64,000 nt of DNA, taken from Octopus vulgaris (Eukaryota). How positions within the stretch are numbered: position 1 is the first letter of the stretch; every line of letters begins with the position of its first letter. Position numbers and translations under genes: made by a program. This document shows positions 10,069-56,162 of this stretch, piece by piece. A model generated the notes under the pieces. The model worked only from the letters and a program-made list of their open reading frames with translations. It made no database searches and had not been told where the DNA came from. Location of the stretch: the NCBI GenBank assembly GCA_951406725.2, contig OX597815.1:53072001-53136000 (forward strand), in the 5' to 3' direction.

Positions 10069-10159
10069 AACCCCGAGGAAGGAAATGTTTTTATACAGGG
10101 CGTTGAATTTGGATTATTTCCTACAGCCCCTTCAAACTTTTCTGAAACGGCCGTAGGTT
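10069..10159 (+). ncRNA. Type I hammerhead ribozyme variant with a large loop II
   Basis: AACC-CCGAGGA-AGGAAA...TTTTCT-GAAA-CGGCCG-TA-GGTT: stem I AACC/GGTT, core with U4>C, palindromic stem III ACGGCCGT, GUA cleavage triplet. Confidence 0.65.
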
Positions 10160-11127
10160 TGGACTGATGCTTTCAATTGCCTGCTTTAATCTATTCTAAC
10201 TATATTTTCTTTTATGTTACTCCTTATATTTTTATGTTTAAATTCTCATATTTCTGTATTTTTATCAGCTATGTCTTAATATAAATATGTGGTTATTTGA
10301 ATGAAATAATATCTCATATCATACATCTGAATTATGAATTTGCTTGTCTGAGTGTTAAAGACAAATACTGAAATTTTTATCATATACCAAATTATATGTA
10401 TATATATATATATATATATATATATATATATATATATATATATATATATATATGTACGTATGTATGTACGTATGTATGTACGTATGTATGTACGTATGTA
10501 TGTACGTATGAATGTATATATGTATGTATGTATGTATGTATGTATATATAGACACATATACACGCATATCTATGTATCTATCTATTTGTATGTTTAGTTT
10601 GTTGGTTACGACAAAATTTGGGAAGTTACTTATTTCCCAAGCGAGTCGATGATGAAATAAATCTAGTATCGGTAAGACGGGTTAAATTTGAATCAGTGCA
10701 GTAATTGTATAATTCAAATACAAGCAAAAGCAAACAGGAGGAATAAACAATGGAAGAAAGAGCAAAGAAAAAAATATAAAGCTAATGTTATTACTCTGTG
10801 AATAACAGGAAAGTAATAGAAGTGGACGTTTTGGAAAGATATCCTTTGCCGAGATGGAAGGAAAAGAAATCAAAATGGAATTCAGAGACGAGGTTGGCTG
10901 TTAGTGTATTTGGATGATCCAGCCGACAAGAAATAATGCATGCAAAGGGAAATAAGAGTATGCTGAAGTGTGTGTATATTTTTATGTGTATGCACGCGCG
11001 AACGGGTGTGCGTTTGCGTGTGTAGGTGTGTGTGTGTACATACACACACATATTATTATATATGAATATATATATATATATATATATATATATATATATA
11101 TACATATATATATATACATATGTATAG

Positions 11128-11460
11128 CCTTGTGAGTGGATTTGGTGGACAGTAAACGGAAGAAACCCGTTGTATATATATATATATATATATATATATA
11201 TATATATATGTGTGTGTGTGTGTGTGTGTGTGTGTGTGTGTGTGTGTGTGTGTGTGTGTGTGTGTGTGTATTTGTGCGTGTGTGTCGGTGTTTGACCCCC
11301 CACCATCGTTTTGAAAATTGATGCTGCTCTGCTTATGTCCTCGTAACCTAGCGGTTCGGCAATAGAGACTGATAGAATAAGTGCTGACTGCAGTCAAATG
11401 ACTGATACAAGTAAAAGAATAAAAGAAGATATATTCGAAGGCGCACAGTTATGGAGTGTA
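11128..11460 (+). mobile_element. SINE 3' part with internal (TA)n(TG)n, same family as 48104-48221 and 49270-49650
   Basis: CCTTGTGAGTGGATTTGG...CGTAACCTAGCGGTTCGGCAA matches the reverse complement of 49390-49540. Confidence 0.75.
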
Positions 11461-11841
11461 AAAAGATAGGGAAAAATCTGAAACATATGAGTACTAGGAT
11501 ACAAATTAAATATATGTATATGTGTGTATATATATATATATATATATATATATATATATATATATATATATATATATAGATAGATAGATAGATAGATAGA
11601 TAGATAGATAGATAGATAGATAGATAGATAGATAGATGGATAGATAGATAGATAGATAAGCATATACATCTCTCTCTCTATATATATATAGAGAGAGAGA
11701 GAAAGAGAGAGAGAGAGACACATATATGTACACGGTCACATATGTATAGGTATATATGTGTGTATATATATATATATATATATATATATATATATATATA
11801 ATAATAATATTAATAATAATAATAATGATAATAATAATAAT

Positions 11842-12341
11842 GAAGTGGTATCATGTACATTGTTCTGTCTTGGTATAAAAGATGGGCTACAGCAAATATT
11901 CTGCTCAATACCACAGATTTGCTTGTCAGTTGTTTGACCTTAACCAGTTGAGCATGTCCCTTAGTGGCTGACAATACGTGCATCTCTGATCACGAGCAGA
12001 AGTAGTGGGGGAGCATCATGGCCATGTGTTGAGAGGGATTCTTTGGAGTTTGAATAATTCACCTCTGGAAACATAGGTGTTTCGTTCAACATCCTAAAGC
12101 AACCCTTATTCAGGGACCTTTTGAGCGGGATGGGCTACTCAACCTGAAGAAAATTCTAACTGGGCCCCACCTGCAAGGTCATGTGCTGTTTATCTTGATA
12201 TGAGATCACCATGTCGCGCACATATGGTTGTGATGCATGTGCCTGGTGTACCTTTATCAGACGGGTAGTCATGATGGGTATATTAGGCTTCGTATATTTT
12301 ACCCCAGTGTCACTTTGATGGCATGAACTGCTCTCTCACTC
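11842..12341 (+). mobile_element. Probable 5'-truncated LINE 3' UTR inserted in (TAA)n (R4/Dong-like targeting)
   Basis: A 500-bp high-complexity block with (AAT)n on both sides, ending CTCTCTCACTC-AATAATAAT. The clade is inferred only from the target. Confidence 0.5.
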
Positions 12342-54700: not shown

Positions 54701-54799
54701 AGCAGTAGCATTCTTCTCTTTCCTGGGACTGCCACATTATGTTGGCAACAAACGATCTCTTTATATATTTATAGTAAATCCCTAAAAAAGAAAAAACAA

Positions 54800-54975
54800 C
54801 AAACACAAAAAAAAACAGCAACGCGGCACGTGGTGCACGTAAAGTATTAGCAGACGTTCGGGGAAGGAAAGGAAGATGGTTTAACGTTTCGAGCAACGCT
54901 CTTCTTTAGAAACAGAGGAAAGTCTAATAGAAAGGAAGGCGGAGTAAGAAAATCGCCAACAATTCACATCTGGTT
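54800..54975 (-). mobile_element. Short pLTR-like repeat with a degenerate minimal HHR at ~54878-54913
   Basis: Minus strand CTAAAGA-A-GAGC GTT GCTC-GAAA-CGTT; same layout as the motifs at ~23610 and ~55320. Confidence 0.55.
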
Positions 54976-55224
54976 GCTGTTACTCTGTGCGTCTGTGTAT
55001 AAATTATCAGTTGGGTTTGCTTTATTTTTACCCTTAACTTAGAAATAGAGAAAAACATAGTGCTAGATATAAAAAATAAACCACTTGGTGCTAGAAATGT
55101 TGCGGCTAAACGTGAAATTCTACGAGCAGGGACGTGTCTTATGCGAAATGTGGATGAGCCCGAGTGACGCTAATGTCTCGGAGTCGCCTCTGGTATACAT
55201 ATATATATATATATATATATATAT

Positions 55225-56162
55225 AAATAGTTGGAATTTACAAAAAGCAAAAGACGAAGACAGGTAAACAACAAACAGGTGTATTAGTTTAACACTCGGG
55301 AAGGTGAGAAAATCTTTTACGTTTCGAGCTTACACTCTTCAACAAAAAGGAACAGGAGAAAATAAACAGAGACAGAATAAAAAAAGAAGGCTTTAGTAGC
55401 TAGCGGTTAATCATGGCGATGGCCGGACAGAGATGGTCAGGCAGGAGAGCTAGGAAGAAGGGAAGATAATAAAGTACTGGTAATCCCAAAATGAAGGTAC
55501 ACGTGCGAGTGTATGTGAGAGCGTGCGTGTGCGTGTGGATAGGGGCTGGTGACGTTGAGGTGTGGGTGTGTGCATGTGTAGCTGTGTGGATGATGGTGTG
55601 TGTGCTGGGAAGTGGTCAGTGCTAGTGTGTGCGGGTTGGGGCGATGTGGTGATGTGTGGTGTGTGAGGGATGCGAGGGTTGGGTGTGTATTGGTGTGAGG
55701 GTGTCTGGGTAGGGGTAGGGTATGTGAGAGTGGGAGTGGTGTATGTAGGAGTGGAATATGTGGGATAGGGTGGTGGTAAGATGGGATGTATAGGGATGGT
55801 TGGGTTGGGATGTGTAGGAGTGCGGTAACGATAGAGGGGTGACGATGAAGGGAGAGGGTAGCAAGGAGAAGGTAGGTAGGAGTGAAGAGAGGAAGCGGGT
55901 GTCAGAGCAGAGAGGAGAGGAGTGGTGGGTGGGAGTCAAGAGAGGAAGTATGCGTAAGAAGAAGAGAGGAGAGAGGAGGGGAGTTAGATGAAAAGGAGAG
56001 GGGAGTTGAGCCCATGTGCCGCAAGGAGCGAAGAGAAGATTAATTCCTGTTCACGGCAAAGACAGGAGTCTGGATAGCCCCTGTGCAAGGACAACCCGAA
56101 CACAGACAAGTGTTGTAAAGAATGACCGGTAAAGCGGAACTGGCGCGAGACCGGGGTATCGA
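55225..56162 (-). mobile_element. Neptune-type PLE 3' end (GIY-YIG C-terminus, 3' UTR, pLTR with degenerate HHR at ~55312-55350)
   Basis: [21 protein letters not shown]...REQELIF...HGLNS is homologous to 46970-47130. Minus strand has TTGTTGA-A-GAGT GTAA GCTC-GAAA-CGTA. Both ends abut (TA)n. Confidence 0.85.

What the first reader, a model, noticed from the sequence alone, without database searches (positions are those of the whole stretch)
10069..55350. About nine architecturally diverse hammerhead ribozyme motifs in 45 kb, mostly marking PLE ends
Seen: CUGANGA...GAAA...NUH cores with pairable stems at 10069(+), 12505(-), 13731(-), 18218(+), 39971(+) and 54536(+), plus three degenerate minimal ones near 23610(+), 54890(-) and 55320(-). 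Most lie downstream of, and on the same strand as, a GIY-YIG remnant. Known: PLE pLTRs carry type I HHRs, often with palindromic stem III that works as a dimer. Inference: different PLE families here use very different designs (palindromes ACGGCCGT, ACATATGT, ACCGGT, ACGT; long stem II; full stem III), so cephalopod genomes may hold a large, poorly catalogued ribozyme reservoir.
Basis: partly seen in the sequence, partly recalled or inferred. Interest (0 to 1): 0.75.

Follow-up and report, generated by a model that had tools for sequence, protein, structure and literature searches.

The report
Penelope hammerheads with family-fixed variant cores
All nine motifs are hammerhead-shaped RNA sequences at the tail ends of eight repeat families, most of them traced to Penelope-like jumping genes, which is a known arrangement; the two copies called degenerate at 23610 and 55320 belong to a family of thousands that shares an unusual core letter predicted to slow self-cutting, which is untested.

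Summary
All nine sites are real type I hammerhead motifs from eight repeat families. Five families are directly tied to a GIY-YIG endonuclease and one by homology; two are not tied. Family majority lines restore the fold where the window copy is broken. Hammerheads in Penelope pLTRs, their diversity within a genome and palindromic stem III are published (Cervera 2014). The window's density is ordinary for this genome (about 1 intact motif per 20 kb).

Corrections: 10069 reads CCGAGGA, not CUGANGA. Only 2 of 9 copies are contiguous with a same-strand GIY-YIG; at 18218 it is inverted. The three 'degenerate' minimal motifs are not one decayed class. 54890 belongs to a canonical family. 23610 and 55320 belong to a lineage fixed for A6U (2,595 exact copies versus 134 with A6). 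A sister family outside the window carries U4C (4,524 exact copies). Both changes hit the uridine turn while the rest of the fold is kept.

None of 30 copies of the 18218 family begins at the cut, so insertions come from uncut RNA. Cleavage is untested. I found no paper on fixed A6U or U4C Penelope families, but Lünse 2017 was unavailable. This scan has noted such cores before in other genomes.

The parts
10068..10160 (+). Type I hammerhead with long stem II and stem III ACGGCCGT; window copy has C4 (family majority U4; C4 in 6 of 24 other copies). Hydra-like PLE family; no endonuclease in this copy.
12507..12565 (-). Type I hammerhead with stem III ACTC-T-GAGT; 3' arm of stem I lost by a deletion of about 28 nt (family has 6-7 bp).
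13103..13346 (-). Broken GIY-YIG endonuclease remnant (Hydra-like), same strand and contiguous with the 12505 hammerhead.
   Evidence: L120 aligns over 12372-13436
13731..13781 (-). Type I hammerhead identical to its family majority; 4-bp stem III with an 8-nt loop containing CTAG; U10.1-U11.1 mismatch fixed in the family. The copy runs up to about 16489; the family's endonuclease lies about 2.9 kb upstream in L298.
16488..18158 (-). Inverted 5' part of the 18218 element (linker, GIY-YIG at 17033-17299, 3' UTR); abuts the forward part without gap in the coordinates of the longer copy L219.
18218..18298 (+). Intact canonical type I hammerhead with long stem II and stem III ACATATGT; family 3' end about 57 nt after the cut, optional tail to about 18497, then (TA)n.
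23606..23641 (+). Minimal hammerhead with A6U core (CUGUCGA plus extra A), identical to its family majority, in a copy of about 216 nt (23528-23744) without endonuclease.
39982..40035 (+). Intact canonical type I hammerhead with stem III ACCGGT; copy begins at 39953; endonuclease link of the family not shown.
54551..54593 (+). Type I hammerhead with stem III broken in this copy (family ACTAGT) and extended stem I; copy begins at 54388 with a short inversion; endonuclease link not shown.
54879..54913 (-). Minimal hammerhead; window copy G5A, family canonical (CUGAAGA plus extra A); sister lineage of the A6U family.
55314..55349 (-). Decayed copy of the A6U minimal hammerhead (also C3U), 81% identical to the 23610 copy.
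56043..56160 (-). C-terminal GIY-YIG remnant (Neptune-like), same strand and contiguous through the 3' UTR with the 55320 hammerhead.
   Evidence: L020 aligns over 55448-56161

Best explanation
The nine motifs are type I hammerhead folds near the 3' ends of dead, mostly 5'-truncated copies of eight repeat families, six tied to Penelope-like retrotransposons and two likely so; they likely cut only slowly and conditionally, as dimers or with the element's protein, and the RNA that was copied into the genome was uncut at this site. Shown: the fold, its place roughly 55-115 nt before the usual 3' end, ragged 5' ends and inversions, insertion at (TA)n, and copies spanning the cut. Shown: one lineage is fixed for U6 and a sister family outside the window for C4, while stems I and II, C3-G8, G5, A9, GAAA and the ACGT palindrome are kept between lineages about 40% diverged. 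Inferred: selection acts on master elements, not on copies. Inferred: stem III forms between two hammerheads of a tandem transcript. Inferred: U6 and C4 weaken the uridine turn, so these very successful families get by with attenuated cleavage. The local clusters likely arise because elements insert into the (TA)n runs that flank earlier copies.
For: Family majority lines give a complete fold in 8 of 8 families. Same-strand GIY-YIG upstream at family level: 10069 (5 of 25 loci), 12505 (5 of 24 other loci plus the window), 18218 (L065, L069, L219), 23610/55320 (window, L020), 13731 (L298; the same gene inverted in L156, 94% identical). Strong 3' bias of depth over L219 in contigs of organism A. 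0 of 30 copies picked by a pattern downstream of the cut begin at it; their 5' ends lie 14 to 1152 nt upstream (four pairs are two arms of one insertion). This matches PMC11167929, where catalytic mutants do not affect insertion in vitro and cleavage needs the protein. U6 in 33 of 34 rows; 2,595 exact 28-mers versus 134 with A6. U6 is the majority in four subfamilies 8-25% apart while N7 and N17 vary. In two RNA runs and two contig sets (organism labels B, C, D), N7 and N17 vary but position 6 is not among the listed variants (30 rows not shown). C4 in 13 of 13 unselected rows; 4,524 exact 35-mers. Single changes in the CUGA turn give low activity (PMC9901934); natural A6C and U4C variants are slow but active (PMC3088659).
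Against: No cleavage was measured. RNA reads show no start or end pile-up at the A6U cut, but they pool many copies on both strands and come from another species label. No contiguous endonuclease was found for the 39971 (41 loci), 54536 (39 loci) or 54890 (36 loci) families. Formal covariation is thin: one stem I pair changes on both sides among 10 hand-picked copies, and 30 of 500 shuffles reach the score. Conservation of the core is partly circular, because copies were collected with a core pattern. An ACGT stem III duplex is weak (-1.7 kcal/mol), and for all nine sequences folded the hammerhead-constrained monomer lies 1.9-8.6 kcal/mol above the minimum-energy fold. No genome-wide count of the U4 counterpart of the C4 family was made.
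Confidence: 0.72

Rival explanations
1. The U6 and C4 hammerheads no longer cut at all; the fold is kept only as a binding or positioning signal for the element's protein near the start of reverse transcription.
For: Changes in the CUGA turn give low activity and were not rescued by second changes. Insertion in vitro does not need cleavage. Copies span the cut. The variant families are among the most abundant.
Against: G8, G12, the C3-G8 pair, N17 not G and the palindrome are all kept, which fits residual catalysis. Natural A6C and U4C variants still cut. Canonical-core copies span the cut as well, so that test does not single out the variants.
Confidence: 0.3
2. The variant cores cut about as well as canonical minimal hammerheads in their natural setting (dimer, protein or Mn2+), so U6 and C4 are tolerated drift in master elements.
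For: A6C is rescued by Mn2+ (PMC7151607). The Anolis PLE hammerhead cuts only with protein. Canonical min-HHR dimers are already slow.
Against: In Mg2+ the A6C mutant of a fast hammerhead lost about five orders of magnitude. No data on A6U in this context were found.
Confidence: 0.2
3. The short minimal-hammerhead families are non-autonomous retrozyme-like units that spread through cleaved, circular RNA.
For: C4-family copies are short, about 250 nt. L205 shows an RT motif close upstream of the tail, as in an internal deletion. Retrozymes derive from pLTRs (10.64898/2026.07.22.740005).
Against: The copies are dispersed, not tandem, with a fixed 3' end and ragged 5' ends upstream of the cut. 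The A6U family is contiguous with an endonuclease.
Confidence: 0.1
4. The motifs are chance matches or decayed leftovers with no selection on the fold.
For: Loose descriptors give 0.6-1.1 hits per shuffled window. Copies decay without compensation. Rfam finds nothing.
Against: Majority lines restore the fold. 21 hits in 429 kb against 0 in each of 10 shuffles for those classes. The fold is kept between lineages about 40% apart.
Confidence: 0.03

Closest known systems
Minimal type I hammerheads (min-HHR) in pLTRs of metazoan Penelope-like elements (Cervera and de la Pena 2014, PMC4209133; main text parts 1-2 of 4, supplementary file 2 part 2 of 3 and search passages; file 1 not searchable)
   Same: Type I topology, palindromic or minimal stem III, extra nucleotide between 9 and 10.1, many heterogeneous families per genome, mostly solo copies, inverted pairs, U3-A8 variant (one hit).
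   Different: Their descriptor requires CUGANGA, and every row of the alignment part I read has CUGA or the U3-A8 form. No A6U or U4C family and no cephalopod was seen there. Stem II here reaches 54-64 nt in total.
Hammerhead of the Poseidon element of Anolis (Frangieh et al. 2024, PMC11167929; passages and second part of the main text)
   Same: Hammerhead shortly before the 3' end and tail of insertions; uncut RNA is the template; no RNA-seq ends at the cut.
   Different: Canonical core and a different PLE clade; activity measured there, not here.
Natural core variants A6C (phage Bcep176) and U4C (viroid) (PMC3088659, section 8 and passages; PMC7151607, part 1 of 4)
   Same: Same positions of the uridine turn. 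The U10.1-U11.1 mismatch of the 13731 family is also described there as tolerated.
   Different: Those are single sequences outside retrotransposons. Here the variants are the master state of families with thousands of copies, and the letter at 6 is U.
Hydra and Neptune/Nematis clades of EN+ PLEs (Craig et al. 2021, 10.1101/2021.04.23.441226; passages and section 11)
   Same: DKT motif in L219, CxCx5C motif at 39596-39967, C-terminal GIY-YIG, (TA)n targeting and hammerheads (Hydra); a CX4CxxC finger before the endonuclease at 46873-47427 (Neptune/Nematis type).
   Different: Clade labels rest on motifs only; no tree was built.

Membership tests
Type I hammerhead ribozyme | Three stems around the core, 5' and 3' ends in stem I | tested here: met
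   8 of 8 family majority lines; 12505 needs a bulge in stem II and 13731 opens stem II with U-U
Type I hammerhead ribozyme | Core C3 U4 G5 A6 N7 G8 A9, G12 A13 A14, A15.1-U16.1, H17 (seven families other than 23610/55320) | tested here: met
   Majority lines of 10069, 12505, 13731, 18218, 39971, 54536 and 54890; the window copies at 10069 and 54890 deviate
Type I hammerhead ribozyme | Invariant A6 and U4 (23610/55320 family; C4 sister family) | tested here: not met
   U6 in 33 of 34 rows, 2,595 versus 134 exact copies; C4 in 13 of 13 unselected rows
Type I hammerhead ribozyme | Site-specific self-cleavage after N17 | not testable with these tools
   Needs a cleavage assay; RNA reads inconclusive
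Type I hammerhead ribozyme | Match to an Rfam hammerhead model at gathering score | tested here: not met
   0 matches in the window; none at E<=10 over three sites
min-HHR of PLE pLTRs | Palindromic stem III strand able to pair between two copies | tested here: met
   Perfect palindrome in 6 of 8 families, imperfect in 12505 and 13731; self-duplex -1.7 to -14.1 kcal/mol
min-HHR of PLE pLTRs | Cleavage as a dimer only | not testable with these tools
   From the literature
EN+ Penelope-like elements | RT followed by C-terminal GIY-YIG, hammerhead downstream on the same strand | tested here: met
   RT-like frame and EN in L219 for the 18218 family (RT recognised by motifs, no Pfam hit; GIY-YIG below the Pfam cut-off); EN for 10069, 12505, 13731 and 23610/55320
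EN+ Penelope-like elements | Same, for the 39971, 54536 and 54890 families | tested here: inconclusive
   No contiguous EN in 41, 39 and 36 loci; 54890 is homologous to the A6U family and has an RT motif close upstream in L205
EN+ Penelope-like elements | 5' truncation, 5' inverted copies, optional 3' tail, microsatellite targets | tested here: met
EN+ Penelope-like elements | RT phylogeny placing the families in Hydra or Neptune | not tested
   Motifs only
Non-LTR retrozymes | Tandem units with one hammerhead each | tested here: not met
   None of the nine sites lies in a tandem array; copies are dispersed

The most novel reading that the evidence does not exclude
The most prolific hammerhead-bearing Penelope lineages of this genome have, at least twice independently (U6 and C4), broken the uridine turn while keeping every other feature of the fold. 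In Penelope elements the hammerhead would then have turned from a cutter into a structural signal for the element's protein, and nearly half of the intact hammerhead folds in the genome would be such variants, missed by descriptors that require CUGANGA.
Probability: 0.3. Interest if true: 0.7.

Novelty: new variant of a known kind. Interest (0 to 1): 0.45.

Why it matters
What the hammerhead does for Penelope-like elements is an open question. Closely related natural families that differ at core position 4 or 6 (canonical, A6U, U4C), each with thousands of copies, give a ready-made comparison of cleavage rate against transposition success. Of 21 intact folds in unselected flanks, 9 had a U6 or C4 core, so surveys that require CUGANGA would miss a large share. 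The presence and diversity of the hammerheads themselves is expected.

Tried and rejected
Rfam: the whole-window E-value scan listed only microsatellite matches in the 150 of 342 rows shown; gathering threshold gave 0; two short stretches gave no hammerhead. Pfam recognised GIY-YIG only below its cut-off, and no RT family in the L219 frame, so endonucleases were mapped with profiles built from the window and loci. Pairs of hits a few kb apart (L216-L218, L220-L222) were fetched as possible full elements; ORFs were listed for L216, which held none, and L219, which did. Covariation within families: 5 double-sided, 52 single-sided kept and 95 broken cells; rejected as a test because copies are dead. 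Core positions changed less than flanks (2.5% versus 4.7%), but the searches were centred on the motif, so I do not use it. Sequencing runs: no RNA holder listed. The RNA runs laid on L219 gave 24 and 23 reads, all under 90% alike, which is uninformative. The same-strand endonuclease at 53248-53526 was rejected as the parent of 54536, because the 860 nt between them match no family locus. Relative ages: divergence from the majority was 0.048 (C4), 0.061-0.069 (U6 subfamilies) and 0.074 (canonical), but the sets were picked in different ways, so no age order is claimed. In one search, 41 of 53 rows for the A6U reference were short matches to T/TA-rich ends and were set aside. Lünse et al. 2017 could not be read.
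Full report
Observation. The window lies in a 2.8-Gb animal genome (G000:C2:53072001-53136000). All nine motifs are present. As single copies only some pass a strict test: 2 hits against 0.03-0.10 in shuffles, and 4 against 0.6-0.8 with one core mismatch. Rfam reports none. I therefore fetched 25-30 genomic relatives per site. The nine sites form eight families; 23610 and 55320 are one (81% identical). The family majority line is a complete type I fold in 8 of 8, and it repairs the defects of the window copies at 10069, 12505, 54536 and 54890. 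Within families the copies decay: 5 double-sided changes, 52 single-sided kept and 95 broken pair cells.

Density. In 429,373 bases of flank away from the anchors, a descriptor with free core letters found 11 canonical, 3 A6U, 6 U4C and 1 U3-A8 folds, and none of these classes in any of 10 shuffles. A6C, A6G, U4A, U4G and G5 variants were absent (two rows are identical and two are an inverted pair). That is about one intact fold per 20 kb, or on the order of 100,000 per genome by extrapolation; this is probably high, since the flanks are those of Penelope insertions. The window has 2 at the same stringency (3 with shorter stems), so it is ordinary for this genome.

Context. Profiles built from the window's own frames, with stops read as X, place two kinds of GIY-YIG. 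L219 holds a long copy of the 18218 family: an RT-like frame with a DKT motif, the endonuclease, 3' UTR, hammerhead and tail. In the window the same element is 5'-inverted: 16488-18158 on the minus strand abuts 18160-18567 on the plus strand with no gap in L219 coordinates. The 12505 and 55320 hammerheads are contiguous with same-strand endonuclease remnants. The 10069 and 13731 families are tied to endonucleases in other loci. For 39971, 54536 and 54890 no contiguous endonuclease was found in 41, 39 and 36 loci; 54890 is homologous to the A6U family. The labels Hydra-like and Neptune-like rest on motifs given in Craig et al. 2021, not on a tree; the reading of GTRMGPDYANLF as a Penelope RT motif is recalled. 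Copies end at or near (TA)n, have ragged 5' ends and are often inverted pairs. Contig depth over L219 rises from about 1,000 at the 5' end to 719,000 at the hammerhead.

Is the template cut? Thirty copies of the canonical 18218 family were chosen by a pattern lying downstream of the cut (880 exact matches). None begins at the cut; their 5' ends lie 14-1152 nt upstream. Twenty end 39-57 nt after the cut and ten carry a longer tail. Unselected copies of the minimal families agree: for the C4 reference 24 of 25 rows start upstream of the cut and one at +60; for the 54890 reference 11 of 11 start upstream. This matches the Anolis element, where cleavage is protein-assisted and not needed for insertion in vitro (PMC11167929).

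The variant cores. The 23610 motif equals its family majority: CUUU CUGUCGA A GAGC GUAG GCUC GAAA CG UA AAAG. The extra A after A9 is the known min-HHR feature, so the one departure is U at position 6. It holds in 33 of 34 rows. The exact 28-mer occurs 2,595 times, against 134 for any N7 with A6. Four subfamilies 8-25% apart have U6 as majority, with C, A or U at 7; four A6 members of one of them came from loci picked for A6. Reads and contigs labelled organisms B, C and D show N7 and N17 varying and no listed variant at position 6 (30 rows not shown). A sister family absent from the window has C4: 13 of 13 unselected rows and 4,524 exact 35-mers. The canonical 54890 family is 18% from the C4 family and about 40% from the U6 lineage. 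Across them only positions 4, 6, 7, 17, loop II and the outer stem I pair vary, the last on both sides. This comparison is partly circular and its formal covariation is weak (30 of 500 shuffles). C4 also appears in 6 of 24 relatives of 10069 and in a tandem repeat. Two RNA runs gave 2,388 and 2,254 reads on the 23610 stretch, on both strands about equally, with no end pile-up; this cannot show or exclude cleavage.

Mechanism. Most likely these are slow, conditional ribozymes. Stem III is a palindrome that pairs between two copies (self-duplex -1.7 to -14.1 kcal/mol). The 3' hammerhead is left uncut while reverse transcription starts just downstream, and selection acts only on master elements. 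U6 and C4 are predicted to slow cleavage further (PMC9901934 passages; PMC3088659 section 8; PMC7151607 part 1). Whether they still cut is the open point.

Known and new. Hammerheads in Penelope pLTRs, their heterogeneity and molluscan examples are published (PMC4209133; review passages PMC6765202; preprint 10.64898/2026.07.22.740005 part 1 of 5). A 2026 octopus repeat annotation mentions Penelope but not ribozymes in its main text (PMC13282606, term search). Searches showed no paper on cephalopod hammerheads or on Penelope families fixed for A6U or U4C. Lünse et al. 2017, seen only in a reference list and a review passage, and supplementary file 1 of Cervera 2014 were not read and could hold such variants. 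I reached the A6U/U4C reading before consulting the scan's notes; notes on other genomes report similar variant cores and are not counted as evidence.

Verdict. The finding is real and mostly a known kind. The fixed uridine-turn variants make it a new variant of a known kind. Interest 0.45.

Noticed in passing
window 14640-14690 and 15477-15527 (+), in a 600-nt direct duplication (14285-14885 / 15124-15723): Hammerhead core pieces in reverse order (stem strand, GAAAC ... CUGAAGA, complementary strand): 2 hits against a mean of 0.24 in 50 shuffles, with related copies in several loci. Earlier notes of the scan read such motifs as permuted hammerheads of Naiad or HERO elements. The duplication is inserted in the 13731 element.
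   Followed up: partly
window 56341 (-) and 61458 (+): Another repeat family with conserved CCGAAAT upstream of CUGARGA (13-14 locus rows); it did not pass my reverse-order descriptor, and its fold is unresolved.
   Followed up: partly
L299:3333-4460 (+); L098:662 and 940; L297; L332: Tandem repeat with a 360-nt spacing in L299 carrying a type I hammerhead with C4 core in all four units; relatives have U3 variants. Looks like a non-LTR retrozyme with a variant core.
   Followed up: no
window 39719-39943 (+); L278:1767-2100: Hydra-type CxCx5C fragment that stops at the start of the endonuclease; in L278 it is followed within about 70 nt by a different type I hammerhead, suggesting endonuclease-truncated non-autonomous elements.
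   Followed up: partly
window 13756-13774 (-): In the 13731 family an alternative 6-bp hairpin hides the GAAA strand in the minimum-energy fold; it is fixed in a young family and could act as an off switch.
   Followed up: no
window 6167-7184 (-), 25235-25498 (-), 46873-48137 (-), 52266-53526 (+): Four further Penelope-like RT or endonuclease remnants with no hammerhead assigned to them here.
   Followed up: partly
window 58463-60657 (+) and 9007-9694 (+): LINE-type RT frames (RVT_1 and zf-RVT; zf-RVT only, below cut-off, at 9007), unrelated to the hammerheads.
   Followed up: no
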